Of a DNA stretch of 64,000 bases, positions 5 through 63,757 are shown piece by piece. This DNA comes from Candidatus Omnitrophota bacterium. GTDB taxonomy: Bacteria > Omnitrophota > Omnitrophia > Omnitrophales > Aquincolibacteriaceae. Both the position numbers and the translations under genes were made by a program. The DNA lies in NCBI GenBank assembly GCA_035352955.1, contig DAOPYQ010000006.1, positions 90,456 to 154,455 on the forward strand, read 5' to 3'. Positions within the stretch are counted from its first letter, which is position 1. Each line of letters starts with the position of its first letter. A model generated the notes under the pieces. That model did not search any database and had not been told where the DNA came from. It saw only the letters and a program-made list of their open reading frames with translations.

Positions 5-2164
5 TTATTCGGCGTCTTCGAGGCGCGGGTCTATTTCGGATTTATGTTCTTGCCACCACTTTTTCGCGTCTTCCGGAAGTGCCTTGCCGGGGACGGTATA
101 TCCCGTTATTTTCTGAAATGAAGTGATCGCCTCTTGTGAGGTCAAGCCGTCAGGATCATTTGCCGCAATCTCCAAAAGAACTTCGGGAACCCCTTTCCAC
201 GGCCATTTTTTTAACATCGAAACGATGGATTTTCGGACGGCCGGGTCGGGATTTTTATAGAAATAAGTGATCATGAGCGTCAGGGACCGTTTTTCGAGGC
301 TTTTCGGATGAACTCGCAGGAAAGGTTCAAAGGCGACGGGGGGCGTTTCTTTCGGTTGAGCGGCAGTTATCGGTTTCCGGGCGAGGTTTTCGCCCGCGAT
401 TCCCCGGAGATAAGCCATGAGTGACGAGACTCCCAAGACCAGGAGCAGGGCGATAAGAACAAAGAAGATAAAGAATTTTAAGCCGCGGAAGAGCATTTCC
501 CAAAAGACAGACCGTTCGCGTTTGGGACTTACGGGGCGTGGAGAGGCTGCCGGTTCTTTTGGAACCTGCGGTGCGATCCCCCCCCATAGGTTTTCTTTCT
601 TTTTTTCAGGTTTGACGGGTCTTGGGGGAATTGGATCGGGAACTTTTGCGGACGGCGCCAATGGTTCCGGCGGTATCAGGGGGTCGGGTTTTTCCGAAGG
701 CGCTGTCTCCTGGGGGAGCGCGGCTTTTTTGACCGAACGCCAGGCTTCTTCGATTTTGGATAATCTGTCGTTTAAGGAGCTGGCTTGGGGACGGAATCCG
801 TCCGGGAGCACTGTTTGAAGATCCTGTTCATGCTCGAGCATGGCAGCGATCTGTTTTTTAAGAGATGCGAAGAGGCCGACGATGTCTGAAGAGTTATTTT
901 CCTTCGGTTCATTCAAAAGGCGCTCGACTTTTTCCATTTTCTTTACGATCTCGATCTCAAAAGCCTGGAGTATCTCGATCGCGGAATCGCGATGAGAGTC
1001 TTCATCAACTGGGAGGAACTTTGGTTCTTGAGGGGGCTCCGTTTTTTTTTCGTGCTCCGGTTGTGAAGGTTGCTTTTCAGGGCCGGGTACGGATTGCGGA
1101 GCGCTTTTTTGGGTCAGCTCCTTATGCTTTTCGGCCGCTTGATGAATGAGGAAGGAAAGATTTTGGCGCTGTTGTTTGGGGGTGGTCGAAGGCTTGGGTC
1201 GCCCAGTCTGGAAAGGTTGGGCCGTTTTACCAGGCCGGTTAGCGGGTTTTGACGGTTTTTCTTTCTCCGGCTCGACCTTGGGGGGCTTCGGTTGTGGATC
1301 AGTGTTTTTCCACGGAACGGTTGGGGGGCTTGATCTCGCGACCTCTGTTGAGGCTTGAGAGCCGGAATTTTGGGGCGGTACGATCTTTTCAACGTTCGGT
1401 GAATCGGAAAGTGCCGGAATCGGTGTCTCAGGTTTCTTCTCGTCCTTTTTAAAAAATTCCTGCGCCGTTTCGTTCCCGGTTGCAGGTGATCCTTCCGGTT
1501 TGGAAATTGGCGGTACGGGTTCCTGAGGGAGGGCGGGAGAGGGTGCTTCAGAACCCTCGACCTGAGGTTCTACCTTTTCCGGCGCCTTCGCTTGATCCGT
1601 GGCCCCCGGGATTTTCTCCGTGAATTCCTTCGGGGTCGGCACGTTTTTTTCGTTTTCGGTTTGTGAGAGTTCCTCCGGGCTGGGCGATACGGGTTCCTGA
1701 GCTACGGAAGGAGTGGGTTTGTTTCGTGTGGGAAGAGTTGTTGGATCGATTTTCAAGATCTCCCATATTTTTAAAAAACATTGTTCCATGAGAGCGACTC
1801 GCTGGGACCATGATTCTAGGGGGGGCGGCCAGATCGACATGATTTCCGTGGCCAGCTTGTTTGCTTCCGTCTTGATATTTTCAAGCTGCATTTCGAGATC
1901 CAGTACGGAAAAAGCGGCTGATTCAGGACGGTCGTCGCAAACGGATGCCAGATCATCCAGGTGGGCGATCATCCCGGAGAGAACGGCGCAACAATTGAGC
2001 CTGGCATCCGGCACGTCGATGCGGTCCGGCGTTTTCATGAAGGAAAGATTTTTCTTCAGGACCTGCAGCTGGGATTCTGCAAGGTCGGCTATTTCTGAGG
2101 TGCGGTTGTTTTCTTTTGCTGTCATGGATCCTTTGGAGTTTGAGCGTTTGTTCTCCGCGTTCAT
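5..2164 (-). CDS. hypothetical membrane-anchored protein with a ~400-aa proline-rich low-complexity linker; single TM helix near the C-terminus followed by a ~150-aa helical domain
   Basis: 719-aa intact ORF. Long PxxP/PEK-rich region, coiled-coil-like stretch, hydrophobic segment FFIFFVLIALLLVLGVSSLMAYL. No recognisable catalytic motif. Confidence 0.5.
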   Translation of the reverse strand: MNAENKRSNSKGSMTAKENNRTSEIADLAESQLQVLKKNLSFMKTPDRIDVPDARLNCCAVLSGMIAHLDDLASVCDDRPESAAFSVLDLEMQLENIKTEANKLATEIMSIWPPPLESWSQRVALMEQCFLKIWEILKIDPTTLPTRNKPTPSVAQEPVSPSPEELSQTENEKNVPTPKEFTEKIPGATDQAKAPEKVEPQVEGSEAPSPALPQEPVPPISKPEGSPATGNETAQEFFKKDEKKPETPIPALSDSPNVEKIVPPQNSGSQASTEVARSSPPTVPWKNTDPQPKPPKVEPEKEKPSKPANRPGKTAQPFQTGRPKPSTTPKQQRQNLSFLIHQAAEKHKELTQKSAPQSVPGPEKQPSQPEHEKKTEPPQEPKFLPVDEDSHRDSAIEILQAFEIEIVKKMEKVERLLNEPKENNSSDIVGLFASLKKQIAAMLEHEQDLQTVLPDGFRPQASSLNDRLSKIEEAWRSVKKAALPQETAPSEKPDPLIPPEPLAPSAKVPDPIPPRPVKPEKKKENLWGGIAPQVPKEPAASPRPVSPKRERSVFWEMLFRGLKFFIFFVLIALLLVLGVSSLMAYLRGIAGENLARKPITAAQPKETPPVAFEPFLRVHPKSLEKRSLTLMITYFYKNPDPAVRKSIVSMLKKWPWKGVPEVLLEIAANDPDGLTSQEAITSFQKITGYTVPGKALPEDAKKWWQEHKSEIDPRLEDAE

Positions 2165-17023: not shown

Positions 17024-17072
17024 ACGGGCGTTGTTTTTTATTCCTCAAAGCTTGTCAGCCGATGAGGTGAGC

Positions 17073-20000
17073 ATGAAAGTGGACCCTTCGAAGCATTGGG
17101 TGGACGGTAAGTATTCCATCCGGGAGCTTGTCGATCTGGGGGAATTGCGTTCTCTTTTCCAGAGTTTTACGGATTCCATGGGTTTTACCATCGGCTTTTT
17201 AAGTATTCCCGACCTCGAGATTCTGATCGCTACCGGATGGCGCGATATTTGCACGAAATACCACCGCCAGTGCCCTCTTGCCATGACCCGGTGCCGCATG
17301 AGCAATGATCGCCTGATCCGCCATCTGAAACGTCCCGGCCAGATCGTGATCGAGGGCTGTGAGAATGGGCTGGTCGACTGTGCCACACCTATCATCATCA
17401 AAGGCAAGAAGATCGCCATCCTCGCGACCGGCCAGGTCCTCCTCAAACCGCCCGATATGAGCTATTTCAAGAGACAGGCCAAATTGTTCGGATGTAATGG
17501 AGCCGCCTACCTGCGTGCCGTAAAAGAAGTTCCCGTGATCTCCGAGAAAAAACTGAAACAGGCGACGCGATTTCTGGGTGAGTTGGCCCACATGATCATT
17601 CAGATGGGCCATGCCGGTCTTGCGGAGAAAGAGCGTGCCGAAGCCCTAGGGCAGGAGATTCGCCGGCGGGAGGGGACAGAGATCGTGCTGAAAGACACTC
17701 TGGATCAATTGGGAGCCCTCTACGACGGTATGACCGACGGTATCATTGTGGGCGATGTGAAGACCAAAAAGCTCCTTAAGGTTAATGCGAGCGCCTGTCG
17801 GATGTTCGGATATTCCGAAAAAGAAATCCTCACAAAAAAAGTTCGGGATATGCATCCTCAGCAACACCTGAAAAAGGTTTTTAGTTTCTTCCGTAGCTTG
17901 ACGCGAAAGGAGAAACTTGTTGCATTGGATGTTCCGTGCAAGAAAAGGGACGGCGCTGTTTTTTTTGCGGATGTTGCGGGAAATAAGACCCGTTTTGAAG
18001 GAAGGGATTGTCTCGTCGGATTCTTTCGGGATGCCACGGAAAGGAAAATGGCGGCAGAATCTCTCCGGATGAGCGCCAAGGATTGGCAATCTACATTTGA
18101 TGCTGTCACGGACGCTGTCTGGCTCCTGGGCCTGGACGGGCGAGTTCTCCGGACTAACAAGGCAGCTTCCCGGTTATTTGGGAAAAAATCCGGAGAGATC
18201 CTCGGACACCGTTGCTGTGAAATGGTTCACGGGACCTCCCAGCCCCCTAAAGAATGTCCCATGCTCAGGATGCGAAAGACGCTTCGTCGTGAGTCCTCGG
18301 AGATCCGTCTCGAGGACCGGTGGCTTTCCATAACGGTGGACCCCACTTTTGACAAGGCCGGTGTCTTGAACGGTGCCGTCCACATCGTGAGTGATATTAC
18401 GGACCGTAAACGGTTGGATCTGTCACTGCACGAAAGCGAAGAGCGGTTACGCATGGTCCTCGACAGCTCCCTCGACCTGATCTATCGGCGTAATTTGAAG
18501 ACCGGCTGCTACGATTATCTTAGCTCTGCCGTCAGGCGGCATACAGGCTATGCCGCGCATCAGTTGGTGGGAGCAAAGGCCGGACGTTCGATGTTTCGGC
18601 GCATTCATCCTGAAGATCTTCCGCGCGTGCGGAAGGCTTTGCTTGCCGCCCGGTTCGGTCGGGAAGCTCAAGGAATTTTGGAGTATCGGTTCCGTCATAG
18701 AAATGGCAGGTACCGGTGGTTTTCTGATCGCTTTACAGTTGTGAAGGACGAGACCGGGCGTCCGCTTCATTGGTTGGGCGTGTCCCGCGACGTTACGGAA
18801 CACAAGAAAATAGCCGGGGCTCTCGTTGAAAGTGAAAGGCGCTATCGTCTCCTGACCGAGAATTCGAGTGACGTGATATGGACCATGAATTTAGACGGAA
18901 AATTCACCTATGTCAGCCCGACGACCTACCAACTTCGCGGTTATACTTCCGAGGAAGTTATGCGCCAACCTCTGGACAAACAGGTCGCGCCGGGCTCTTT
19001 GCCTCTGGCAATAGCAACCCTGGATCAAGTGCTCAAGAAAGGCCGGAGGGGGATTCTTGTGCCGCGGAGGGTTGTTGATGTGGAGCAGCTTTGCAAGAAT
19101 GGTTCTACGGTCTGGACTGAAGTTTCAATTGAGCTTGTCCGGGATAAAGTGAACGGTGTTCTTTTTCTTCTGGGAGTGACGCGGAACATTACGGAGCGTA
19201 AGCGGACTCTTGAGGAGTTGGAAAAATACCGCGGGCATCTCGAAGAGATTGTGATGTCGCGGACCCGGGAGGTGAACGACGCCCGGAACTTTTTGGACAA
19301 GATCATTAACACCATGGGGAACCCTGTTTTTGTCAAGGACCGGAAACACCGCTGGGTTCTCCTGAACGATGCGTATTGCAAATTTATGGGGTATCGCAGG
19401 GAGCAGCTGATCGGTAAAAGTGACCGCGACTTTTTTTCGCCGGGAGAGGCCAAGGTTTTTTGGGCCAAGGACGAGATTGTTTTTCGAACCGGAAAGGCCA
19501 ATGTTAACGAAGAGAAATTCACCGACGCGAGAGGCTGTACTCACACGGTACTTACGAAGGAAGTGCTCTATAAGGAAAAATCCGGACAGAACTATATCGT
19601 TGGGATCATTACCGATATTACGGAGCGGGAACGAACGGAGCATCGGATCCGTGAAAATGAGGAGAAAATCCGGCGGATCACCAACGCGCTCCCCTCGGTC
19701 GTCTACACTTATCAGATGACGCCGGATGGTAAACAGCAGCTCACGTTTCTCAGCCCGCAGGTGAGAAAACTTTTCGGGATCTCTCAGCGTTCAGTCTTGA
19801 AAGATTTCTACATCCTTTGGAATCGGGTCGTCAAGGAGGACCGGAAGCCCCTTTATGCATCCATCCGGAAATCTTTCAAGGCACTAACTCCTTGGGAGTA
19901 TGACTTCCGCATCATTACACCGACGGGGATCCACAAATGGATTCATGGGGAGTCCGTTCCGGAGAGGCCTCTTCCCGATGGGCATGTCATCTGGCATGGC

Positions 20001-21995
20001 GCTCTGTCGGATATTACCGCGAGGAAGCGGATGGAGGGGGAGCTTGAAAAACACCGGAATCATCTTGAGGAGTTGGTCAAGGCGCGGACAAGTGCGCTGG
20101 AGCATGAGATCGGTGACCGCATCCACGCGGAAGAAAAACTCCGGGTGAGCGAAGCCCGGCTGCAACTTCAATTCCGGCGAATGCCGATCGGGTGTATCCT
20201 GTGGAATGCGGATTTCAGAGTTCTGATGTGGAATCCCGCAGCGGAGAAAATTTTTGGCTACTCCGCACATGAGGCTATTGGGAAACATCCATACGGGTGG
20301 ATCGTTTCCCAGGAGGCCTGGAAGCGTATCTCCCGGGACTGGAGCCATCTTCGTAAAGGGGAGATTACGGCGCATAGCGTGAATGAAAACCGTACAAAAA
20401 AAGGAGAAAAGATCCTTTGTAAGTGGACCAATACGCCACTTCGCGGGAGTGACGGAGAGGTGCTCGGCGTTCTTTCGATGGTGGAAGATGTTACCGCGCT
20501 TCACCTGGCCGAGGATCATCTCCGGGAAAGTGAACGCCGGTATCGGGCTCTTTTTGAGTCCGCGAAGGATGCGATTTTTCTGATGGAAGGAGATCGTTTT
20601 ATCGATTGCAATCCGACGACCCTCAAAATGTTCGGGTGCGACCGCAAAGAGATCCTTGGGACACGGCCTTACCAGTTTTCACCGGAACGTCAGCCGGATG
20701 GAGGCAGTTCGAAAGAAAAGGCTTTGGAGATGATCTCCGCCGCTTTTCAAGGGGTCCCGCAATTCTTTCAATGGCAGCACTGTCGTAGGGACGGGAGCTT
20801 ATTTGATGCCGAAGTGGGCTTGAATACGATGGAAATTTCCGGCAAAAAATATCTCCTGGCCATTGTTCGCGATATCACCGAACGCAAAAAGAGCGAAGAG
20901 GCTTTGAATGAGAATCGCCGGCAGCTGCGCCAGATCATCGATACGGTACCGCACATGATTTTTGCCAAGGATCGGGAGGGGCGGTTCCTTATCGTGAACC
21001 GGGCAGTCGGGTTGATGTATGGTAAGGATCCCCAGTCGTTGATCGGGAAGAGACGGCAGGACGTTCATCCGGTTTCGGCCGAAGCTCAGAAATTCCTGGA
21101 CGTTGACCGTGAAGTCTTGTCTTCGGGAAAACCGAGGTTGGTTGCCAATGAACCCTTTACTGACACAAAAGGAAGGCACCATATCCTACAAACGATCAAG
21201 ATTCCTTTTGCGATGGCGGGACTCAAGGAAAATGTGGTTCTCGGGGTTTCGGTGGATGTGACCGAGCAGAAGAAGATTGAGGAGTTTCGTAACGATATTA
21301 TCCGAACCGTTTCCCACGAACTCCGTACGCCCCTGTCGATCGAAAAGGGGGGGATCAGCCTTCTCCTCGACGGTTCGACAGGGCCGATCAATGAGGAGCA
21401 GAAAACAGTCCTGGAGTCGGTCATGAGGAACGTGGACCGTCTTGCCCGGATGATCGACAGTCTTTTGAATATTTCGAAGATCGAAGCCGGCAAAGTGGAG
21501 CTTAAGAAGAAGGTCGTGGATTTCCGGGATATTGTCCGGGAAGTAGCTTTTGAGTTTAAAATAAAGGCCGAAGAAAAAAATATTGCGATCGAACTGGATC
21601 TTTCCGAACAAAAAGTGGAGGCGTTGGCGGACGCGGACAAGATCGCCCAGGTCTTGAGCAATCTGATCGATAATGCCTTAAAATTTACGCGCCAGGGCAG
21701 TATTAAAATATCTCTCAGGAGATCGGACGGAGAGGTTGAGTGTAGTGTTCAAGATACCGGGGTCGGGATCGCTCCGGAAAATATGTCGAACCTATTCGAA
21801 AAGTTTCAGCAATTCGCGCATGCGGCGGGTCCCGGGGAGAAAGGGCTTGGCCTCGGACTTTCGATCGCGCGGGGGCTTGTGGATCTGCACGGCGGAAGGA
21901 TATGGGCGAAGAGCCGTCCGGGCGAGGGATTGCGGGTCACTTTTTCAATTCCGGTGGATGATGGCGGGGAGGAACCTGAACTTGAAAATCTGTAA
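17073..21995 (+). CDS. giant sensor histidine kinase: N-terminal PocR ligand-binding domain, ~9-10 tandem PAS/PAC domains, HisKA, HATPase_c
   Basis: Start at ATG 17073 (GAGGTGA RBS; the ORF-track start at 17031 is TTG). PocR-like Cys/GL-D-A-PI-GQV pattern at the N-terminus. Repeated PAS signatures (DITERK, W..RDITE..). HisKA box FRNDIIRTVSHELRTPLS. G1/G2 ATPase boxes. Confidence 0.8.
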   Translation: MKVDPSKHWVDGKYSIRELVDLGELRSLFQSFTDSMGFTIGFLSIPDLEILIATGWRDICTKYHRQCPLAMTRCRMSNDRLIRHLKRPGQIVIEGCENGLVDCATPIIIKGKKIAILATGQVLLKPPDMSYFKRQAKLFGCNGAAYLRAVKEVPVISEKKLKQATRFLGELAHMIIQMGHAGLAEKERAEALGQEIRRREGTEIVLKDTLDQLGALYDGMTDGIIVGDVKTKKLLKVNASACRMFGYSEKEILTKKVRDMHPQQHLKKVFSFFRSLTRKEKLVALDVPCKKRDGAVFFADVAGNKTRFEGRDCLVGFFRDATERKMAAESLRMSAKDWQSTFDAVTDAVWLLGLDGRVLRTNKAASRLFGKKSGEILGHRCCEMVHGTSQPPKECPMLRMRKTLRRESSEIRLEDRWLSITVDPTFDKAGVLNGAVHIVSDITDRKRLDLSLHESEERLRMVLDSSLDLIYRRNLKTGCYDYLSSAVRRHTGYAAHQLVGAKAGRSMFRRIHPEDLPRVRKALLAARFGREAQGILEYRFRHRNGRYRWFSDRFTVVKDETGRPLHWLGVSRDVTEHKKIAGALVESERRYRLLTENSSDVIWTMNLDGKFTYVSPTTYQLRGYTSEEVMRQPLDKQVAPGSLPLAIATLDQVLKKGRRGILVPRRVVDVEQLCKNGSTVWTEVSIELVRDKVNGVLFLLGVTRNITERKRTLEELEKYRGHLEEIVMSRTREVNDARNFLDKIINTMGNPVFVKDRKHRWVLLNDAYCKFMGYRREQLIGKSDRDFFSPGEAKVFWAKDEIVFRTGKANVNEEKFTDARGCTHTVLTKEVLYKEKSGQNYIVGIITDITERERTEHRIRENEEKIRRITNALPSVVYTYQMTPDGKQQLTFLSPQVRKLFGISQRSVLKDFYILWNRVVKEDRKPLYASIRKSFKALTPWEYDFRIITPTGIHKWIHGESVPERPLPDGHVIWHGALSDITARKRMEGELEKHRNHLEELVKARTSALEHEIGDRIHAEEKLRVSEARLQLQFRRMPIGCILWNADFRVLMWNPAAEKIFGYSAHEAIGKHPYGWIVSQEAWKRISRDWSHLRKGEITAHSVNENRTKKGEKILCKWTNTPLRGSDGEVLGVLSMVEDVTALHLAEDHLRESERRYRALFESAKDAIFLMEGDRFIDCNPTTLKMFGCDRKEILGTRPYQFSPERQPDGGSSKEKALEMISAAFQGVPQFFQWQHCRRDGSLFDAEVGLNTMEISGKKYLLAIVRDITERKKSEEALNENRRQLRQIIDTVPHMIFAKDREGRFLIVNRAVGLMYGKDPQSLIGKRRQDVHPVSAEAQKFLDVDREVLSSGKPRLVANEPFTDTKGRHHILQTIKIPFAMAGLKENVVLGVSVDVTEQKKIEEFRNDIIRTVSHELRTPLSIEKGGISLLLDGSTGPINEEQKTVLESVMRNVDRLARMIDSLLNISKIEAGKVELKKKVVDFRDIVREVAFEFKIKAEEKNIAIELDLSEQKVEALADADKIAQVLSNLIDNALKFTRQGSIKISLRRSDGEVECSVQDTGVGIAPENMSNLFEKFQQFAHAAGPGEKGLGLGLSIARGLVDLHGGRIWAKSRPGEGLRVTFSIPVDDGGEEPELENL

Positions 21996-53267: not shown

Positions 53268-54794
53268 ATGAAAAAGACTTCCAAGAAAAAATCCAGGCCG
53301 TCCCCCAAAACCGGTTTTCCGCGTCGTCCAGGCCGGGCGATTCTCGCCCGGAAAAAGTGTGACGATCTTTTTGAACTGACCAATGATCTCATCCAGATCT
53401 TCAAGCCCGAGGGGACGCTGCTTGACGTCAATCCTTCGTGGAAAAAGGTCCTCGATTATAGTGAAGAAGACCTTACTACGCTCACGATCTTCAACATTAT
53501 TCATCCCCGGGACAAGCAGGAAAGTGAAGAGGTGTTCCGGGCCGTTTTCCGCGACGGCAAACCGCGCAAATTATCTGTCACGCTGATTAAAAAGACCGGC
53601 GGGGAAGTCCTGATCGAGGGGACAGTGAGCAGTGTGGTTTGCAAGGGCCGACCGACCGCGCTCCGGGGCATTTTTTGGGATGTGACCCGCCATAAGGAAT
53701 ACGAAGAGCTCAAGGACGAATTCATTAGTACGGTTTCGCATGAACTCCGGACGCCGCTTACGGTCGTCCGGGAGGGCGTGTCGCAGATGCGGGACGGATT
53801 GGCCGGGGAAATGACTCCGGATCAGAACGCTCTCCTGGATATGGTGCTTCAGAACGTGGACCGGTTGGCGAGGATCATCGAAGAGCTGCTCGACGTTTCC
53901 AAATTAGAGGCGGGACAGGTCCGGATCCAGCGGACCCTTTCCAACATCGTAGACGTGGTCCGGGGCGTGGTCGAAAACTTTCGGCCGGTGGCGCGCAGGA
54001 AGAATCTCGAGATCCATTTGCTTCCCGAAAAGGAAAAGATCGATATTTATATTGACCGGGAAAAGATCGTCCAGGTGCTGACCAATCTCATCAATAATGC
54101 TTTCAAATTTACAATCGAAGGCCACGTGAAGATTCATCTCCGCGAACTGGAGGATTTTGTAGAGTGCAAGGTTGCCGATACCGGGCGGGGGATTTCGAAG
54201 CTCGATCTTCCCAAGGCGTTCGAGAAATTCCGTCAGTTCGCGAAGGTCGTGGGGCCGGGCGAAAAGGGCACGGGGCTCGGACTTTCGATCTGTAAAAAGC
54301 TGATCCAGCTCCACCACGGGCAGGTTACGATCGAAAGCCTGCCGATGAAAGGGACCGTCGTGACGTTCCTTTTGCCGAAGTACACGCCGCGGGAACTTTT
54401 TAAGGAGTCGATCACCCTGGCGCTCAACAAATGCCAGGAGGACAAAAGCCCCCTCTCGGTCATCATTTTTGACCTTGTCAATTTCGACGTGTTGAAAAAA
54501 GACCTTGGCGAAAAACGCGCCGGGTGGATCGTTTCCAGGATGGAGCGGCTCCTTAACGAATCGTTGCGGCGCGCAGCGGACGTCGCTATCAAGGATTCGA
54601 AAGCGATCCTTGTGATCCTGCCGGACACGAAAAAAGAAAATGCCTATATCGTGCTGGGACGGCTTTACCAGCTTTTGCAGGAATATCTTTCCCGGGAACA
54701 ACGGTCCCCGAAGATCGAGATCCATAGTAGCGTGGCCTGTTTTCCTGAAGAAGCGGATACGATCGAAAAACTGCTCGACCAGATCTATGACTAG
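53268..54794 (+). CDS. PAS sensor histidine kinase with C-terminal degenerate GGDEF-like domain
   Basis: 508 aa. PAS, HisKA (FISTVSHELRTPL), HATPase_c, then a ~150-aa C-terminal domain with GGDEF-fold-like pattern but no GGDEF/GGEEF motif. Confidence 0.75.
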   Translation: MKKTSKKKSRPSPKTGFPRRPGRAILARKKCDDLFELTNDLIQIFKPEGTLLDVNPSWKKVLDYSEEDLTTLTIFNIIHPRDKQESEEVFRAVFRDGKPRKLSVTLIKKTGGEVLIEGTVSSVVCKGRPTALRGIFWDVTRHKEYEELKDEFISTVSHELRTPLTVVREGVSQMRDGLAGEMTPDQNALLDMVLQNVDRLARIIEELLDVSKLEAGQVRIQRTLSNIVDVVRGVVENFRPVARRKNLEIHLLPEKEKIDIYIDREKIVQVLTNLINNAFKFTIEGHVKIHLRELEDFVECKVADTGRGISKLDLPKAFEKFRQFAKVVGPGEKGTGLGLSICKKLIQLHHGQVTIESLPMKGTVVTFLLPKYTPRELFKESITLALNKCQEDKSPLSVIIFDLVNFDVLKKDLGEKRAGWIVSRMERLLNESLRRAADVAIKDSKAILVILPDTKKENAYIVLGRLYQLLQEYLSREQRSPKIEIHSSVACFPEEADTIEKLLDQIYD

Positions 54795-54817
54795 ATTCGT
54801 GGGGCGGAGAGTGCAGC

Positions 54818-55192
54818 ATGGCTAAAAAAATACTTGTGATCGATGACGAACCGGACATCCTGACGATGGTCGCGAAACGTCTTGACGCGAACCGTTATAC
54901 GGTGGTCACCGCCGGTTCCGGCGAGGAAGGGCTCGCGAAGGCCAAACAAGAATGCCCCGACCTGGTGTTTTTGGATTATATTATGCCCGGGATGACGGGG
55001 GATGAGGTCTTGTGCCGTTTGAAACAGGATCCGGAGACGAAGAAGATTCCCGTGATCATTTTTACGGCGGCCACAAAGAAAATGAAAGTCGGAGAGTTCC
55101 AGGCGTTGGGGGCGGCGGGGTGCCTTTTTAAGCCGTTCACTTCGGACGGTCTCCTCGGCAGGATCCGTGAAGTTCTTGGAGGCGAAGCATAA
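54818..55192 (+). CDS. CheY-like response regulator receiver (stand-alone)
   Basis: 124 aa. KILVIDDEPD...LVFLDYIMPG...K pattern. Confidence 0.85.
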   Translation: MAKKILVIDDEPDILTMVAKRLDANRYTVVTAGSGEEGLAKAKQECPDLVFLDYIMPGMTGDEVLCRLKQDPETKKIPVIIFTAATKKMKVGEFQALGAAGCLFKPFTSDGLLGRIREVLGGEA

Positions 55193-55249
55193 TCTTTCCG
55201 GTTCTTCCGGCCCGTCTTTTTCGAAATCCTGGAAAATCCAAAATCCATT

Positions 55250-56137
55250 ATGAAGATATCCGAATTTTATAAAAAACAACGTCACACGATCTCCTTCGAG
55301 TTCTTTCCTCCCAAAACCCCGGAGGGGGAAGTCAAGCTTTACCAGACCGTGAGCGACCTGAAAAAATTGTCGCCTTCGTTCGTCTCCGTTACTTATGGGG
55401 CGCTCGGGACCACCCAGGCGAACACGCTACGGATCGTCGGCGAGATCAAGGAGAAGATCGGTCTTGAGGTTGCGGCGCATCTCACCTGTGTGGCGCACAG
55501 CCGTGACGAGATCGGAACGGTTCTCGGGAAATTGCGGGAAAAAGGCATCGAGAACATCGTGGCTCTCCGGGGAGACCCTCCGCAGGGAGAGACGGAGTTT
55601 AAGGCCCCGCCGAACGGTTTCCGTTACGCCTCCGAACTGGTGCGTTTTATCCGCCAGCATCCGGAATTCGGAAAGGTCTTTGCCATGGCGGTCGCGGGAT
55701 ACCCGGAAGGACATCCCGAATGTCGGGACAAACGGAAGGATCTCGAGCATCTTAAAATCAAGGTCGACGAAGGCGCGGATGGCGTTATGACCCAGCTTTT
55801 TTTCAATAACCGGGATTATTTTGATTTTGCGGAGCGTTGCCGAAAAATCGGGATCAAGGTCCCGATCGTGCCGGGGATCATGCCCGTGACGCACGGGCCT
55901 CAGATCGAGAAATTTTCCCGTATGTGCGGGGCAGCGATTCCGGAGAAGATCCGCCAGGCGATCGCGCGGTTCGGGGACGACCAGAATTCGGTTATGCGTT
56001 TCGGGATCGAATATGCCACGGAACAGTGCCGCGACCTTTTGCGCCAGGGCGCGCCGGGGCTTCACTTCTATACCCTGAACCAGTCTCTCGCGACCCGTGA
56101 GATCTTCAGCAATCTGGATCTTGCGGACAAGGCCTGA
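55250..56137 (+). CDS. metF: 5,10-methylenetetrahydrofolate reductase
   Basis: 295 aa. FEFFPPKT, VSVTYGA, TIM-barrel MTHFR motifs. Confidence 0.85.
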   Translation: MKISEFYKKQRHTISFEFFPPKTPEGEVKLYQTVSDLKKLSPSFVSVTYGALGTTQANTLRIVGEIKEKIGLEVAAHLTCVAHSRDEIGTVLGKLREKGIENIVALRGDPPQGETEFKAPPNGFRYASELVRFIRQHPEFGKVFAMAVAGYPEGHPECRDKRKDLEHLKIKVDEGADGVMTQLFFNNRDYFDFAERCRKIGIKVPIVPGIMPVTHGPQIEKFSRMCGAAIPEKIRQAIARFGDDQNSVMRFGIEYATEQCRDLLRQGAPGLHFYTLNQSLATREIFSNLDLADKA

Positions 56138-56196
56138 GCCTGTAAAATCAAACCGTCCGGGGCTTGTAAGGGACGTCATGAAGGGAATTATTCATT

Positions 56197-56628
56197 GTGA
56201 GTCAGTGGCATATCGGGGAGATCCTGATACAGAAAAGATTGATCGACTGGAAGCAGCTTGATGAAGCGCTGAACGAACAGAAACGGACCAACGAATTTGT
56301 CGGTGAGATTCTTGTTCGCAAGCAGTATGTCCCGCGGTTCCTGCTTTTCAAAGCCTTGGCTGAGCGGCACGCGATACCGTTTGTCGATCTTTCGAGTATT
56401 TTTATCGATCCGAATGCGATTCGGAAGATCCCGAAGAGTGTTGCGTTGAAATACAGTGTGATCCCGATCGAATTTCAGGATAGGACGATGATCCTCGGGA
56501 TCGATAACCCGGTGGCGGTGCTGCCGGAGCGTGAAATAACGGACATGGCGCAGGTTTCGTCGATCAAGACGGTGCTTTGTACCCCGGAAGCCGTTTCTCG
56601 GGCGATCGAGGAAAATTACGCGGCTTAA
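56197..56628 (+). CDS. stand-alone T2SSE_N / MshEN-like domain protein (putative c-di-GMP receptor)
   Basis: 143 aa, GTG start with AAGGGA RBS. Tandem MshEN-type motifs HIGEILIQKRLIDWKQLDEALNEQ and FVGEILVRKQYVPRFLLFKALAERH resemble the RLGxxLVxxGxIxxxxLxxALxxQ c-di-GMP-binding motif. Confidence 0.6.
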   Translation: MSQWHIGEILIQKRLIDWKQLDEALNEQKRTNEFVGEILVRKQYVPRFLLFKALAERHAIPFVDLSSIFIDPNAIRKIPKSVALKYSVIPIEFQDRTMILGIDNPVAVLPEREITDMAQVSSIKTVLCTPEAVSRAIEENYAA

Positions 56629-56649
56629 AGGCCCGGAAGGAAGGTTCTC

Positions 56650-58047
56650 ATGAAAAAAATAAAGGTCCGGTTCGAGAAAGATTCTTTGGGAACAAGGCCG
56701 GTGCCGGCCGCGGCCTACTACGGAATCGAAACGGTCCGGGCGGTCGAAAATTTTCCGATCTCCGGGCTCCGTTTTCATCCGGAATTTTTCCGGTCGCTCG
56801 CTCTCCTTAAAAAAGCCTGTGCTCAGGCGAATTTTTCGCTGCGGAGGCTGGATGCGCGCCGCGCTCGGGCGATCCTTAAAGCTTGCGACGAAGTGATCGC
56901 CGGCAAGCACCGGGACCATTTCGTGACGGATGCGTTGCAGTCCGGAGCCGGGGTTTCGGCGCACATGAACATGAATGAAGTCCTGACGAACCGGGCGCTC
57001 GAGATCCTCGGCCGTAAGCGCGGCGATCATGCGGCGATTCATTCTCACGACCATGTGAATATGGGGCAGTCGACCAACGATGTTGTCCCGACGGCGCTTA
57101 GGATCGCCGCGTTGAAGATGGCGAAGGATCTTGCCGCGGCGTCGCGGACGTTGGAGCAGGCCCTTCTTAAAAAGGCGCGTGAGTTCCGCAGTATCGTTAA
57201 AGCGGGGAGGACCCATCTTCAGGATGCCGCGCCGGTCACGCTCGGCCAGGAATTCGGAGGTTGGGCCCGGCAACTCGAAAAAGGACGGAAGAGGATTGAA
57301 CAATTGGCCGCGGGTCTTTTGGAACTCGGCATCGGCGGTTCTGCGGTCGGGACCGGCCTCAATACTTCGTTACGTTATACCCGGGCGGTCATTGGAAATT
57401 TGAAAAAGCTGACCGGATTTCCGGTCCGGAAGGCCCAGGACCTTTTTGCCGTGATGCAGAACGATGCGGATTTCGCGGCGGTGTCCGGTGCTCTCCGGGA
57501 TTACTCGCTTTCGATGATCCAGATCGCGAACGATCTCCGGTTGCTGAGTTCCGGCCCGAACACCGGGTTTGGCGAGATCCAGTTACCGGCGCTTCAGCCC
57601 GGTTCTTCGATTATGCCGGGAAAAGTGAATCCCGTGATCCCTGAAGTGGCGGCGCAGGTCGGTTATCAGATCGTTGGCAATGATACCGCGATCGCATTTG
57701 CGGCGGCGGCGGGGGAGTGTGAGCTCAATGTCATGCGTCCCGTGATCGTCCACAACTTGCTGCAGTCGTTTGAGATCCTCAAAAATACGCTGAAGGTGCT
57801 TGCGGTCAAGTGCGTGGGCGGCATCAAGGCGAACGAGGAAAAGTGCCGTCTGAATTCGGAAAAGAGCTTTGGCATCGCGGCAGCCCTTAACCCCTATATC
57901 GGCTATTCCAAGGCTGCGGAATGTGTCAAAGAAGCCACCCGGACAGGGAAGACCCTGAGGCAAGTCGTTTTGGATAAAGGGTTTATGACGGAGAAGCAGC
58001 TTTCCAAAGTCCTCTCCCCGGGGAATCTTACAAAGCCGCCGCGATAG
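56650..58047 (+). CDS. aspA: aspartate ammonia-lyase (fumarase/aspartase class II family)
   Basis: 465 aa. Signature GSSIMPGKVNPVIPEV (AspA-like VxPEV after the SS loop). EKDSLGTRPVPAAAYYG N-terminus. Confidence 0.75.
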   Translation: MKKIKVRFEKDSLGTRPVPAAAYYGIETVRAVENFPISGLRFHPEFFRSLALLKKACAQANFSLRRLDARRARAILKACDEVIAGKHRDHFVTDALQSGAGVSAHMNMNEVLTNRALEILGRKRGDHAAIHSHDHVNMGQSTNDVVPTALRIAALKMAKDLAAASRTLEQALLKKAREFRSIVKAGRTHLQDAAPVTLGQEFGGWARQLEKGRKRIEQLAAGLLELGIGGSAVGTGLNTSLRYTRAVIGNLKKLTGFPVRKAQDLFAVMQNDADFAAVSGALRDYSLSMIQIANDLRLLSSGPNTGFGEIQLPALQPGSSIMPGKVNPVIPEVAAQVGYQIVGNDTAIAFAAAAGECELNVMRPVIVHNLLQSFEILKNTLKVLAVKCVGGIKANEEKCRLNSEKSFGIAAALNPYIGYSKAAECVKEATRTGKTLRQVVLDKGFMTEKQLSKVLSPGNLTKPPR

Positions 58048-61352: not shown

Positions 61353-61425
61353 GGGCCCGTAGCTCAGGTGGTAGAGCACATCCCTTTTAAGGATGGTGTC
61401 GATGGTTCGAATCCATCCGGGCTCA
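61353..61425 (+). tRNA. tRNA-Lys (anticodon UUU)
   Basis: Cloverleaf read by eye. Acceptor GGGCCCG/CGGGCUC, D-arm AGCUCAGGUGGUAGAGC, anticodon stem CAUCC/GGAUG with loop CUUUUAA, T-arm GAUGGUUCGAAUCCAUC. No encoded CCA. Followed by a CCCCCGAC..GUCGGGGG hairpin. Confidence 0.85.
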
Positions 61426-61674
61426 CTTCTCATGTCTATCTCTGAACCGCAGAGATACAATCCCCCGACGGTGTCGGGGGATTTGTCATTTCCGGGCCTT
61501 TTCGAGGCCCCCAATATCCCCCTATTTCCCGATCTATCTCCAAATCGGCCTTTGGTTTCAGCTGACTGGTTTCGATCCATTATGGCGCACTAGGCGATCC
61601 CGGCATTTTTCGATTTTGAGCTGAAACCACAACTATGTCGATATGGCCCGATTTCCAGGGGTTTATCTCTGGTT

Positions 61675-63330
61675 TCAGGAGGGTTTAACGTACTGGGTGG
61701 GGAGGATAGCTTTCCAGGAGGTTGCCTGTTTGGCCCAATCCAGCTCGGCAGCGAGCGGCCTTAGCGTCCGTTCGGTCATATCGCATAACTGGACGGAATC
61801 ACCGAATATGATCTCTTCCTGCACCGCAGGAGATAGAAACAGCAAGTTTGTGACTTGTTCAAGGCGCTGTTTGCTAAGGTTGAGCCATCCGGCGATTTGT
61901 TGAAGGTCCTTTGCCTTGCCGTCCGCGAGCATTCCCCGGATTTGGTGAGCGAGGAGCAGTTGTTTACGGATGTGGGGTTCGTGCTCGTAAGCCATCCGGG
62001 GAAGATTCGGCAATCTTTTTTTCAATACATCTATCGGCAAATCGAACTCGTGTTTTTTGAATGCGCCGTTCAATTCAATCCAGAGTTTGCCCTTGAGCCC
62101 GTCATATTCGATTCCTTTGACAAGCTCCTTTAGGATCGCCGATTGCTTCTCAAGAGGCAGCGTTGGCCAGTCTTCAGCGGTAAGCCGCTGGTCCTTTGTA
62201 AGCTGGATCAGAAATTCAAGACATTTGCTCTCGATTGCGGATGCGACGACGGATTTTGTGGGACAGCCCTTCCATTCATGTTTGATGGAGTAGAGGCAAA
62301 CGTAATAGCGATAGTTGAAATTCTTATTTCGGCCTCGGGCATACGTGTGGCACATACTGCATTTGCAGGACGTGCAGCGGAACAGGCCTGTCAAAAGCCC
62401 GGGGAATTTCCGATGTGTGGAAGCGCCGCGCACATAGCAGTTGGACTTCATTTTTTCTTGGACTTGGTTGAAGATCTCTGGGGTCACGATGGGGTCATGC
62501 AGTCCGTCATAGAGCTTGTCTTCATACCGGATTTTGCCCATATAAGTGGCGTTTTTTAGAATGAGTTGGATGTTGGTATTCCTAAAGATGACTCCGCCTT
62601 GGTTTCGTTTTCGGCAAGGATACTTCTTGGTGCGAAATCCTTCAGCGGTCAAAAGGAGTGCGATCTTACGATAGGAATTACCCTCGAGATAAAGCTGAAA
62701 CATCCTGCGGATGACCTCTGCTTCCTTTGGATTAATGATCAGTTTCTTGGTGGGCTTGTCGACCTCATAGCCGAGTCCTGGCAGTCCTCCCGCCCATTTG
62801 CCTTTCTTCCGAGCCGCACTCATCTTGTCTTTAGTGCGTTCACTGATTATTTCCCGTTCAAACTGGGCGAAAGAAAGAAGGATGTTTAAGGTTAGCCGGC
62901 CCATGGACGTGTTTGTGTTGAAATGCTGAGTGATAGAGACGAAGGTTACATGTTGCTCTTCGAAAAATTGTAGGACTTTCACGAAATCTGAAAGGGATCG
63001 CGATAGCCGGTCTACCTTATAAACAACCACGCAATCGATCTTCTTGTCCCGGATGTCTTGCAGGAGTTTTTGTAGGGCAGGGCGATCCGTGTGAGCGCCG
63101 CTTATGCCGCTATCGTCATAGGTCTCTTTCAGCAGTACCCAGCCCTGGTGTTGTTGGCTCTTGATATAGCTTTCCGAGGACTCCCGTTGAGCGTCAAGCG
63201 AGGTAAAGTCGCTTTGCATATTTTCAGTCGTGGATTTTCGCGTATAGATCGCGCATCGGACGATCTTAACTGCACCATTTTCTGCCATTGTTTTTGACTC
63301 CAAAGAATTTGTACCCGTTCCAGTGTGCAC
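61675..63330 (-). CDS. large serine recombinase (resolvase N-terminal domain + recombinase domain + zinc-ribbon)
   Basis: 551 aa. Catalytic-Ser region AIYTRKSTTENMQSDFTSLDAQRE..VVYKVDRLSRS. C-terminal Cys-rich zinc ribbon (C..C...C..C). Confidence 0.85.
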   Translation of the reverse strand: MHTGTGTNSLESKTMAENGAVKIVRCAIYTRKSTTENMQSDFTSLDAQRESSESYIKSQQHQGWVLLKETYDDSGISGAHTDRPALQKLLQDIRDKKIDCVVVYKVDRLSRSLSDFVKVLQFFEEQHVTFVSITQHFNTNTSMGRLTLNILLSFAQFEREIISERTKDKMSAARKKGKWAGGLPGLGYEVDKPTKKLIINPKEAEVIRRMFQLYLEGNSYRKIALLLTAEGFRTKKYPCRKRNQGGVIFRNTNIQLILKNATYMGKIRYEDKLYDGLHDPIVTPEIFNQVQEKMKSNCYVRGASTHRKFPGLLTGLFRCTSCKCSMCHTYARGRNKNFNYRYYVCLYSIKHEWKGCPTKSVVASAIESKCLEFLIQLTKDQRLTAEDWPTLPLEKQSAILKELVKGIEYDGLKGKLWIELNGAFKKHEFDLPIDVLKKRLPNLPRMAYEHEPHIRKQLLLAHQIRGMLADGKAKDLQQIAGWLNLSKQRLEQVTNLLFLSPAVQEEIIFGDSVQLCDMTERTLRPLAAELDWAKQATSWKAILPTQYVKPS

Positions 63331-63757
63331 CTGTGACGGCTTGGGCGATATGGCTCAAGTTCTCATAAAACTGGCCTTCATATTCAAAACCTTCCTCCAA
63401 AACCTTTACCTCGAGCCGTTTCCCTTTGTAGTTTTTGATGATGAAAGATCCAGGCATGGGAAGGCGAATATCCCGGCCGGCATTAGTTTTTCCCGAGTTG
63501 GATCGGATAGCTGTTTTGTTGATGGGGTCATAGATGCGGATAAGTTCTTGGACCCTCTCTTTTGTAGCAGGGGAAAGCCCGCCACCTGCCTGCTCCTGGA
63601 TCCCATAGGCAAGCTGGCGGATCATAAAGACCCTCTTACCGCGCGCCCCCTTGTCGCCGAAGAACTGCCGATAAAGCGCAGATAACTGCGCCGCCCCCGA
63701 TGTTTTTAAAGCTCCAATTTGCCCTGCAATATCGCCCATAACATCCCCCATTTTCAT
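63266..63757 (-). CDS. DUF2924-like protein commonly paired with large serine recombinases
   Basis: 163 aa. Overlaps the recombinase start by ~65 nt. Family call is by pattern memory only. Confidence 0.5.
   Translation of the reverse strand: MKMGDVMGDIAGQIGALKTSGAAQLSALYRQFFGDKGARGKRVFMIRQLAYGIQEQAGGGLSPATKERVQELIRIYDPINKTAIRSNSGKTNAGRDIRLPMPGSFIIKNYKGKRLEVKVLEEGFEYEGQFYENLSHIAQAVTGAHWNGYKFFGVKNNGRKWCS

What the first reader, a model, noticed from the sequence alone, without database searches (positions are those of the whole stretch)
53268..56628. c-di-GMP-flavoured signalling pair: PAS-HK with degenerate GGDEF-like tail and a stand-alone MshEN-like domain protein
The kinase (53268-54794) ends in a ~150-aa domain with GGDEF-fold-like secondary pattern but no GG(D/E)EF. 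This is an inactive cyclase-like module that could bind GTP or c-di-GMP.

Two genes downstream, a 143-aa protein consists solely of a T2SSE_N/MshEN-type domain. Both halves of the published MshEN c-di-GMP-binding motif are recognisable (IGEILIQKRLIDWKQLDEALNEQ and VGEILVRKQYVPRFLLFKALAERH). No ATPase domain is attached, which makes it a candidate free-standing c-di-GMP receptor or adaptor.
Basis: partly seen in the sequence, partly recalled or inferred. Interest (0 to 1): 0.55.

Follow-up and report, generated by a model that had tools for sequence, protein, structure and literature searches.

The report
Two unpaired c-di-GMP receptor-type proteins
An uncultivated Omnitrophota bacterium encodes a sensor kinase with a dead cyclase-like tail and, three genes on, a small protein made only of a known c-di-GMP-binding domain; both are ordinary-looking members of known receptor types, they are not a functional pair, and the small gene's one constant neighbour is the folate enzyme gene metF.

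Summary
The kinase (53268-54794) ends in a roughly 135-aa domain that passes Pfam's GGDEF threshold but has DSKAI in place of GGDEF. The 143-aa protein (56197-56628) is a complete MshEN domain and passes the Pfam and NCBIfam c-di-GMP-motif thresholds. Its predicted fold matches c-di-GMP-bound PilF GSPII-B and MshE.

- **Kinase tail:** it cannot be a cyclase, and GTP binding is unlikely. Its most conserved residues (R435-x-x-D438 and R465) match the inhibitory-site c-di-GMP pocket used by the kinase SgmT.
- **MshEN protein:** it keeps both essential glycines and all six stacking hydrophobic positions, but has H, F and R where the motif has R, R and Q. These changes are fixed in its clade.
- **No pair:** the kinase and its regulator are missing in some relatives.
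- **Constant neighbour:** metF lies next to the MshEN gene in 13 of 16 distant Omnitrophota-type loci and in every close one where the contig reaches far enough.
- **Precedent:** ATPase-less MshEN proteins are already known (PA3740).

No cyclase was found, and ligand binding is untested. This is a new member of known kinds, of moderate-to-low interest. The metF linkage is the only unexplained feature.

The parts
53268..54794 (+). Cytoplasmic sensor histidine kinase: PAS, HisKA, HATPase_c and a truncated degenerate GGDEF-like tail.
   Evidence: Pfam hits. It is 100% identical to an NCBI 'ATP-binding protein [Candidatus Omnitrophota bacterium]' (P0123). The H-box SHELRTPL and the G-boxes are invariant in A3. 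AF2 model mean pLDDT is 82.6.
54387..54791 (+). GGDEF-like C-terminal domain (residues 374-508). The A-site is replaced by D443-S-K-A-I447. The protein ends inside the last helix of the fold.
   Evidence: Pfam GGDEF scores 44.9 bits on profile positions 12-146 of 161. phmmer against T. maritima cyclase 4urg gives E = 1.4e-4. The model shows beta-alpha-alpha-beta-beta-alpha-beta-alpha. None of 120 homologues has [GAS]G[DE]EF. The domain is always at the C-terminus, with 0-10 residues after it in all but one of 117 homologues.
54570..54581 (+). R435-A-A-D438, the candidate I-site RxxD. It lies four residues before the A-site position, where canonical domains have five.
   Evidence: R435 is 95% and D438 97% conserved in 118 sequences. 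The motif aligns with RRPAD of 5euh if one residue is deleted.
54660..54662 (+). R465, the candidate secondary I-site arginine (equivalent to PleD R390 and SgmT R794).
   Evidence: 97% conserved. It aligns with the Arg of 4urg. The R435-to-R465 spacing is 30, which equals the canonical 31 minus the one-residue deletion (SgmT numbering from PMC3509222).
54818..55192 (+). REC-only response regulator (124 aa), the probable partner of the kinase.
   Evidence: Pfam Response_reg, 88 bits. It is adjacent to the kinase in most relatives.
55250..56137 (+). metF (methylenetetrahydrofolate reductase), the conserved neighbour of the MshEN gene.
   Evidence: Pfam MTHFR, 328 bits. TIGR00676, 347 bits (cut-off 293.7). 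Adjacency is documented.
56197..56628 (+). Free-standing MshEN (GSPII) domain protein, 143 aa, with a GTG start.
   Evidence: Domain hits. AF2 model pLDDT is 89.7. Foldseek TM-scores of 0.74-0.77 to 8pdk, 8pfa and 5htl, all c-di-GMP-bound. The N-terminus MSQWHIGE matches the family consensus. AAGGGA lies 10 nt upstream of the GTG.
56209..56280 (+). Half-motif I (residues 5-28): HIGEILIQKRLIDWKQLDEALNEQ.
   Evidence: Offset of 4 relative to V. cholerae MshE (query 5-114 matches chain 9-118). Equivalents: R9>H5, L10>I6, G11>G7, G18>R14, L25>L21, L29>L25, Q32>Q28. Conservation is given.
56296..56367 (+). Half-motif II (residues 34-57): FVGEILVRKQYVPRFLLFKALAER.
   Evidence: Equivalents: R38>F34, L39>V35, G40>G36, G47>Q43, L54>L50, L58>L54, Q61>R57.
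56650..58047 (+). Aspartate ammonia-lyase-type class II lyase. It lies directly downstream and overlaps the MshEN stop codon in relatives.
   Evidence: NCBIfam NF008909, 628 bits (cut-off 510). Stop/start overlaps are seen.

Best explanation
The region holds two independent c-di-GMP receptor-type proteins of an Omnitrophota bacterium.

(1) The 143-aa protein is a complete, free-standing MshEN/GSPII domain. It most likely binds one c-di-GMP molecule in the groove of its N-terminal four-helix bundle. Binding would use the backbone amides after G7 and G36, the two hydrophobic triangles (I6/L50/L54 and L21/L25/V35), and Q28 and R57 on the ribose-phosphates. H5 and F34 would stack on the outer faces of the guanines, as K167 and L196 do in PilF GSPII-B. 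It would then act as a small adaptor whose C-terminal subdomain docks on a partner. The partner is unknown. The gene is an ancient neighbour of metF and, in this clade, is transcribed as metF-mshEN-aspA.

(2) The kinase is an active PAS kinase with a REC-only partner. Its truncated GGDEF-like tail cannot make c-di-GMP but keeps an I-site-like pocket (R435xxD438 plus R465). It therefore probably binds c-di-GMP, as in SgmT or PopA, to modulate the kinase's localisation or output.

Shown: domain identities, folds, motif registers, conservation patterns and gene neighbourhoods. Inferred: ligand binding by either protein, any output, and the presence of c-di-GMP in this organism.
For: MshEN protein:
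- Passes the curated thresholds of Pfam PF05157 and NCBIfam NF053729.
- Best solved relatives are the 6 nM c-di-GMP binder PilF GSPII-B (E = 3e-15) and MshE. PilF GSPII-B itself has K and L, not R, at motif position 1, and restoring R lowers its affinity (PMC11731258).
- The residues whose mutation costs at least 10-fold affinity in MshE (L10, G11, L29, L39, G40, L58, Q32) are I, G, L, V, G, L, Q here (Wang 2016 Suppl. Table 1).
- In 121 family members the motif subdomain is more conserved than the rest (mean top-residue frequency 0.91 against 0.78), and every contact position is at least 86% conserved.
- More distant metF-linked orthologues carry the canonical R...Q/...Q motif.

Kinase tail:
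- Pfam GGDEF above threshold.
- R434, R435, D438 and R465 are among the eight most conserved of about 135 columns in 117 homologues, whereas the metal-binding D402 is only 65% conserved.
- Spacing is consistent with RxxD plus a secondary Arg.
- SgmT provides an experimental precedent (PMC3509222).

Neighbourhood.
Against: - No binding experiment exists.
- The window clade has three non-conservative changes at named motif positions (H5, F34, R57). Both turn glycines are replaced (R14, Q43), and neither H/F nor non-Gly turns have been tested in any MshEN.
- Q61A in MshE costs 12-fold affinity.
- No intact GG[DE]EF, HD-GYP or c-di-GMP riboswitch was found in the 64-kb window or in about 683 kb of related loci, so c-di-GMP synthesis in this lineage is unverified.
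- The I-site Asp is one residue out of canonical register unless a deletion is assumed.
- The spacer (R30, T31, E33) and many non-contact surface residues of the MshEN protein are also invariant, which could mean a protein interface rather than a ligand site.
Confidence: 0.55

Rival explanations
1. The MshEN protein of this clade no longer binds a nucleotide. It is a ligand-independent docking module. MshEN/N1-type domains of XpsE/GspE and of X. citri PilB bind GspL or PilZ proteins without c-di-GMP.
For: - The clade-specific changes R>H5, G>Q43 and Q>R57 occur while more distant orthologues keep R, G and Q.
- The spacer and other non-contact residues are invariant.
- Foldseek also matches the PilB(N)-PilZ complex 7lkm and XpsE 2d28.
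- Wang 2016 notes that many MshEN domains have lost binding.
Against: - XpsE-type loss involves the Gly and Leu positions (G11V, G40L, L29R, L54H, L58C), and all of these are intact here.
- The NCBIfam c-di-GMP-motif model is passed with 12 bits to spare.
- Position-1 Arg is dispensable in PilF.
- R is an accepted last residue in Wang's relaxed motif.
Confidence: 0.22
2. The MshEN protein is a detached N-terminal sensor module of a type IV pilus or type II secretion ATPase. It acts in trans on that machine.
For: - The closest non-family relatives are (MshEN)3-4-T2SSE ATPases.
- In L035 two MshEN-only genes sit directly upstream of an MshEN-T2SSE-PilZ ATPase, T2SSF and pseudopilins.
- Two pilin-like genes follow aspA in L001, L008 and L074.
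Against: - No T2SSE ATPase is present in the 64-kb window or in any metF-linked locus.
- The conserved neighbours are metF and aspA, not pilus genes.
Confidence: 0.13
3. The kinase tail is only a structural or dimerisation remnant of a GGDEF domain and has no nucleotide ligand.
For: - The A-site, the guanine contacts and the last strand(s) are lost.
- The RxxD register is off by one in ungapped alignments (4urg and 5m3c).
- In SgmT itself, deleting the domain gave no phenotype.
Against: The residues best conserved over 117 homologues down to 34% identity are exactly the I-site triad, not the hydrophobic core alone.
Confidence: 0.3
4. The kinase and the MshEN protein form one c-di-GMP signalling pair.
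For: The order kinase, regulator, (GATase), metF, MshEN is collinear in most close relatives.
Against: - The whole region from GT87 to tsf is collinear in that clade, so the adjacency is not specific.
- The kinase is absent in L007, L029 and L060. The regulator is absent in L003/L004, L022 and L058 (L027 keeps only kinase fragments). The MshEN gene is unchanged in all of them.
- In distant orthologues only metF stays adjacent.
Confidence: 0.07

Closest known systems
PilF GSPII-B domain of Thermus thermophilus (PDB 8pdk; PMC11731258)
   Same: It is the best sequence match (E = 3e-15) and fold match (TM 0.75). It has two half-motifs without Arg at position 1 (K and L there; H and F here). It shares the four-helix bundle plus alpha/beta subdomain.
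   Different: It is one of three repeats fused to a T2SSE ATPase. It has Gly at both turns and Gln at both motif ends, and its motif II is one residue shorter. Here the domain is a whole protein, the turns are R and Q, and the last residue of motif II is R.
Vibrio cholerae MshE N-terminal domain (PDB 5htl; PMC5013675)
   Same: Same 53-residue arrangement (24 + 5 + 24) in the same register, offset by 4. The Gly and Leu contact positions are kept, and the fold TM-score is 0.77.
   Different: 20% identity. It is fused to an ATPase. R9, R38 and Q61 are replaced by H, F and R.
Pseudomonas aeruginosa PA3740 (MshEN - xT2SSE_N1, no ATPase)
   Same: It is an ATPase-less MshEN protein that was shown to bind c-di-GMP (Wang 2016 main text and Suppl. 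Tables 3-4). This is the precedent for a free-standing MshEN receptor.
   Different: Its C-terminal subdomain is highly diverged, and it is linked to swarming motility. No sequence comparison was run here, and it has no known metF association.
Myxococcus xanthus SgmT (histidine kinase with a degenerate GGDEF c-di-GMP receptor domain; PMC3509222)
   Same: A histidine kinase whose C-terminal GGDEF domain has a dead A-site and an RxxD plus secondary Arg I-site. c-di-GMP binding there controls localisation.
   Different: SgmT has GAF input and a receiver domain between the kinase and a full-length GGDEF domain with canonical spacing (R763HPD, five residues, G772GGVF). Here the input is PAS, there is no receiver, the tail is truncated, RxxD lies four residues before the A-site position, and the A-site is DSKAI.

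Membership tests
MshEN / GSPII c-di-GMP-binding domain | Curated family models are passed. | tested here: met
   Pfam PF05157 scores 49.0 bits (cut-off 23.1). NCBIfam NF053729 scores 49.9 bits (cut-off 38).
MshEN / GSPII c-di-GMP-binding domain | Two tandem 24-residue half-motifs joined by a 5-residue spacer. | tested here: met
   Residues 5-28 and 34-57, with spacer K29-E33. Ungapped offset of 4 to MshE.
MshEN / GSPII c-di-GMP-binding domain | Gly at motif position 3 in both halves. In MshE, G11L abolishes binding and G40I reduces it 72-fold. | tested here: met
   G7 and G36 are 121/121 in the family and invariant in 25 diverse MshEN-only proteins.
MshEN / GSPII c-di-GMP-binding domain | Hydrophobic residues at positions 2, 17 and 21 of both halves (the two Leu triangles). 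| tested here: met
   I6, L21, L25 and V35, L50, L54. Note that L>V changes cost about 4-fold in MshE L29V.
MshEN / GSPII c-di-GMP-binding domain | Gln at position 24 of both halves. | tested here: not met
   Q28 is present, but motif II ends in R57 (119/121 in the clade). R is allowed in Wang's relaxed pattern. Q61A costs 12-fold in MshE.
MshEN / GSPII c-di-GMP-binding domain | Arg at position 1 of both halves. The relaxed pattern allows [RKPN]. | tested here: not met
   H5 and F34. PilF GSPII-B binds at 6 nM with K and L at these positions, so Arg is not required, but H and F are untested.
MshEN / GSPII c-di-GMP-binding domain | Gly (or [GAS]) at the helix-turn position 10 of both halves. 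| tested here: not met
   R14 (K in most of the family) and Q43. The AF2 model still predicts both turns at pLDDT 86-91.
MshEN / GSPII c-di-GMP-binding domain | Fold: N-terminal four-helix bundle plus alpha/beta C-subdomain. | tested here: met
   AF2 pLDDT 89.7. Helices at 6-12, 18-31, 35-41 and 47-57. Foldseek E = 7e-11, TM 0.74-0.77 to 8pfa, 8pdk and 5htl.
MshEN / GSPII c-di-GMP-binding domain | Actual high-affinity c-di-GMP binding. | not testable with these tools
   Needs ITC, DRaCALA or co-folding with the ligand.
Active GGDEF diguanylate cyclase | GG[DE]EF A-site and guanine-binding Asn/Asp. | tested here: not met
   DSKAI sits at the A-site position, and K410/K411 sit where 4urg has N and D. 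None of 120 homologues has [GAS]G[DE]EF.
Degenerate-GGDEF I-site c-di-GMP receptors (SgmT, PopA type) | GGDEF-fold homology. | tested here: met
   Pfam GGDEF scores 44.9 bits (cut-off 23.8). phmmer hits solved cyclases. The model has the core beta-alpha-alpha-beta-beta-alpha-beta-alpha.
Degenerate-GGDEF I-site c-di-GMP receptors (SgmT, PopA type) | RxxD five residues upstream of the A-site. | tested here: inconclusive
   R435-A-A-D438 is present and 95-97% conserved, but lies four residues upstream. Ungapped alignments put R434 on the I-site Arg and A437 on the Asp. The 5euh alignment puts RxxD in register with a one-residue deletion.
Degenerate-GGDEF I-site c-di-GMP receptors (SgmT, PopA type) | Secondary Arg about 31 residues after the RxxD Arg (PleD R390, SgmT R794). 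| tested here: met
   R465 is 97% conserved. It lies +31 from R434 and +30 from R435, and aligns with the Arg of 4urg.
Degenerate-GGDEF I-site c-di-GMP receptors (SgmT, PopA type) | c-di-GMP binding that depends on the I-site. | not testable with these tools
   Needs biochemistry.
Two-component sensor histidine kinase with cognate regulator | HisKA H-box, HATPase N/G boxes and an adjacent REC protein. | tested here: met
   Pfam scores 58.9, 96.1 and 88 bits. H158 and the G-boxes are invariant in A3.

The most novel reading that the evidence does not exclude
The MshEN-only protein is a second-messenger-controlled regulator of its constant neighbour MetF, or of the metF-aspA unit. This would tie c-di-GMP, or another dinucleotide, to one-carbon, methionine and aspartate metabolism in Omnitrophota. 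The altered lid residues of this clade (H5, F34, R57) would retune affinity or ligand choice. In parallel, a large Omnitrophota family of histidine kinases would use a truncated I-site-only GGDEF tail as a built-in c-di-GMP input.
Probability: 0.1. Interest if true: 0.65.

Novelty: new member of a known kind. Interest (0 to 1): 0.33.

Why it matters
Omnitrophota are uncultivated, often ultra-small bacteria whose signalling is essentially unknown.

If both proteins bind c-di-GMP, the phylum has at least two receptor classes that annotation currently labels 'hypothetical protein', 'ATP-binding protein' or, wrongly, 'PilB' (names).

The H/F/R motif variant would extend the sequence rules for recognising functional MshEN domains beyond the K/L variant solved in PilF.

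The persistent metF-MshEN adjacency is the only element not explained by current knowledge. If it is functional, it would be a new output class for this receptor domain. If neither protein binds a nucleotide, the finding is routine domain annotation.

Tried and rejected
- A word-indexed homologue search with the kinase tail alone found only two fragments. The full-length kinase had to be used instead.
- Foldseek of the full kinase model returned only histidine kinases and phytochromes in the 50 matches listed, so it says nothing about the tail.
- The afdb50 library was unavailable.
- A 25-sequence alignment of diverse MshEN-only proteins was too divergent for the metagenome scan. A 6-sequence alignment worked, but its pattern W[RH]IGE[IL]L[IV][QR] restricts the sample to this subfamily.
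- Regular-expression scans for GG[DE]EF, HD-GYP and the T2SSE Walker A motif found almost nothing. The window and 403 kb plus 280 kb of loci gave only the L035 ATPase.
- Rfam at gathering thresholds found no c-di-GMP riboswitch, only tRNA-Lys.
- Ten mid-length MshEN proteins checked for MTHFR fusions had none.
- Literature searches for MshEN with methylenetetrahydrofolate, and for Omnitrophota with c-di-GMP, gave nothing relevant.
- GTP binding by the tail was considered and rejected on missing contact residues.
- An active cyclase was rejected outright.
- Promoter and terminator scans were at background level.


Full report
**What is there**

On the + strand the region encodes, in order:
- a 508-aa histidine kinase (53268-54794);
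- a 124-aa REC-only response regulator (54818-55192);
- MetF (55250-56137);
- a 143-aa protein (56197-56628);
- an aspartate-ammonia-lyase-type enzyme (56650-58047);
- then rpsB, tsf, pyrH and frr.

Pfam and NCBIfam confirm these assignments. Homologue names place the window in Candidatus Omnitrophota. The kinase is 100% identical to an NCBI MAG protein.

**The kinase tail**

Residues 375-505 match Pfam GGDEF at 44.9 bits (cut-off 23.8). Only profile positions 12-146 of 161 are covered, because the protein stops inside the last helix.

Alignments to solved cyclases (4urg, 5m3c, 5euh) show the following:
- D443-S-K-A-I447 sits where GGDEF should be.
- K410 and K411 sit where the guanine-binding Asn and Asp are.

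The phosphate-binding Lys and Arg, cited for PleD in PMC3509222, would lie beyond the C-terminus. The domain therefore cannot be a cyclase and is unlikely to hold GTP.

None of the 120 best kinase homologues has [GAS]G[DE]EF. These include HAMP- and dCache-type paralogues down to 34% identity, mostly from Omnitrophota. In all but one of 117 homologues that match the tail, the domain ends within 0-10 residues of the C-terminus. This is therefore a distinct, truncated, degenerate GGDEF subfamily fused directly to kinase cores.

Its most conserved columns are P493, L451, D438 (97%), R465 (97%), S397, L433, R435 (95%) and R434 (94%). The metal-binding D402 is only 65% conserved.

R435-A-A-D438 is an RxxD motif. 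It lies four residues before the A-site position, where canonical domains have five. The 5euh alignment accommodates this with a one-residue deletion, pairing RRAAD with RRPAD. With that deletion, the R435-to-R465 spacing of 30 equals the canonical 31 between the I-site Arg and the secondary Arg (SgmT R763 and R794).

I read this as a retained inhibitory-site pocket. [quoted passage not shown] The register ambiguity keeps this an inference.

The AF2 model of the kinase (pLDDT 82.6) shows the expected beta-alpha-alpha-beta-beta-alpha-beta-alpha core for residues 374-507. Foldseek with the whole model listed only kinases and phytochromes among its 50 best matches, so it was uninformative for the tail.

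**The 143-aa protein**

It is a complete MshEN/GSPII domain.
- NCBIfam's c-di-GMP-motif model covers residues 6-56 (49.9 bits, cut-off 38). Pfam MshEN covers residues 59-142.
- The best solved relatives are the PilF GSPII-B domain (E = 3e-15) and MshE (E = 6e-10; query 5-114 against chain 9-118).
- The AF2 model (pLDDT 89.7) has the four-helix bundle plus alpha/beta subdomain. It matches c-di-GMP-bound 8pfa, 8pdk and 5htl with TM-scores of 0.74-0.77.

Using the offset of 4 and the residue roles in Wang et al. 2016, the mapping is:

| MshE | This protein |
|---|---|
| R9 | H5 |
| L10 | I6 |
| G11 | G7 |
| G18 | R14 |
| L25 | L21 |
| L29 | L25 |
| Q32 | Q28 |
| R38 | F34 |
| L39 | V35 |
| G40 | G36 |
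| G47 | Q43 |
| L54 | L50 |
| L58 | L54 |
| Q61 | R57 |

The spacer is five residues.

- **Kept:** both essential glycines and all six stacking hydrophobic positions.
- **Changed:** the two lid arginines, one of the two glutamines, and both turn glycines.

The PilF GSPII-B work shows that Arg at position 1 is not needed. K167 and L196 stack on the guanines, and changing them to Arg lowers affinity 25-fold and 4-fold (PMC11731258). H and F could plausibly stack in the same way, and R57 could reach the phosphate. None of this has been tested.

Within 121 family members the deviations are fixed: H5 in 117, F34 in 112 and R57 in 119. The motif subdomain is more conserved than the C-subdomain (0.91 against 0.78).

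**How common such proteins are**

A profile search of 1.84 billion representatives found 13,210 MshEN proteins at E ≤ 0.001. The top 150 include dozens of 141-158-aa single-domain proteins. The closest multi-domain relatives are (MshEN)3-4-T2SSE ATPases.

Wang et al. already list an ATPase-less architecture, PA3740, which was shown to bind c-di-GMP. A free-standing MshEN receptor is therefore not new in kind.

**Neighbourhood**

- In 31 loci, including 24 GTDB species representatives that are all Omnitrophota, the order metF-mshEN-aspA is invariant.
- In L029 every other flank differs: a restriction-modification system upstream, and Rrf2, a Cys/Met PLP enzyme, ThiF, FtsH and a pterin-binding enzyme downstream. 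The triad still persists there.
- The kinase is missing in L007, L029 and L060.
- The regulator is missing in L003/L004, L022 and L058, and L027 keeps only kinase fragments.
- The whole stretch from GT87 to tsf is collinear in the clade, so kinase-MshEN adjacency carries no specific signal.

More distant orthologues (40-54% identity) were reached through representative proteins and a metagenome scan. Of 16 such loci:
- 13 have metF directly adjacent. Eight have metF upstream on the same strand, and five have metF convergent on the opposite strand.
- One lacks metF (L041).
- Two are cut by contig ends.

Two other MshEN-only genes have different contexts. L032 follows a methyltransferase. L035 has two copies directly upstream of an MshEN-T2SSE-PilZ ATPase and a secretion or pilus operon.

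The distant metF-linked orthologues mostly carry the canonical R at position 1, Q at both motif ends and G at the second turn. The H5, Q43 and R57 state of the window clade is therefore derived.

Ten sampled mid-length MshEN proteins contain no MTHFR fusion. No paper links the two.

**What is missing**

No intact GGDEF, HD-GYP, PilZ-type motif, T2SSE ATPase or c-di-GMP riboswitch occurs in the window. No cyclase was seen in about 683 kb of related loci. Those loci are largely the same neighbourhood, so this is weak evidence. Whether this lineage makes c-di-GMP was not established.

**Verdict**

Both proteins carry receptor-type c-di-GMP signatures: an MshEN motif with clade-fixed variants, and an I-site-only GGDEF tail. 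They are not a pair, GTP binding is unlikely, and the architecture types have precedents (PA3740, SgmT).

My best reading, at about 0.55 confidence, is two independent c-di-GMP receptors. The main rival is that one or both are ligand-free interaction modules.

The persistent metF-MshEN adjacency is unexplained and is the only lead toward something new.

Noticed in passing
window 55250-56628; loci L033, L034, L036-L040, L042-L044, L050, L051, L053: metF lies directly beside the MshEN-only gene in 13 of 16 distant orthologue loci (40-54% identity). Five of these have metF on the opposite strand (convergent), so the adjacency outlives co-transcription. No functional link is known.
   Followed up: partly
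L035:6001-9100: Two tandem 150-aa MshEN-only genes sit directly upstream of a 728-aa ATPase that combines MshEN, T2SSE and a C-terminal PilZ domain, giving two c-di-GMP receptor domains in one ATPase. T2SSF and pseudopilins follow.
   Followed up: no
L034:5491-6456: Two different MshEN-only genes (141 and 151 aa) lie in tandem next to metF and metH. The first has K-I-G-E rather than W-R-I-G-E.
   Followed up: no
window 61353-63757: tRNA-Lys(UUU) just after frr is followed by a 551-aa serine recombinase on the minus strand (61675-63330) and a further small minus-strand ORF (63266-63757, not annotated). GC content drops to 0.48 there. Resolvase/recombinase plus DUF2924 genes occupy the same position in L001/L002 and L006, which suggests an integration hot spot.
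   Followed up: partly
window 55193-55249 versus L001:6407-7120: Most relatives carry a 237-aa class-I glutamine amidotransferase gene between the response regulator and metF. The window and several other loci (for example L013, L015-L017, L023, L024) lack it.
   Followed up: no
window 56629-56649: The window's MshEN protein is about 9 residues shorter at the C-terminus than most relatives (152 aa). In those relatives the stop codon overlaps the aspA start; here a 21-nt gap separates the genes.
   Followed up: partly
window 57928-58017 (AspA residues 427-456); P0246, P0250, P0256: There is a weak reciprocal resemblance between the FumaraseC_C C-terminal helix pair and an MshEN half-motif. NCBIfam c-di-GMP_motif hits AspA at E = 0.017, and Pfam FumaraseC_C gives sub-threshold hits on the MshEN_N regions of three proteins. 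This is probably a shared helix-turn-helix-like pattern, not homology.
   Followed up: no
window 17031-21995: A 1654-aa cytoplasmic histidine kinase has a PocR sensory domain and at least six PAS domains.
   Followed up: no
window 5-2164 (-): A 719-aa ORF has no Pfam family at E ≤ 1e-4.
   Followed up: no
L001:9948-11168 (also L008, L074): Two pilin-like (N_methyl) genes are inserted between aspA and rpsB in one species only.
   Followed up: no
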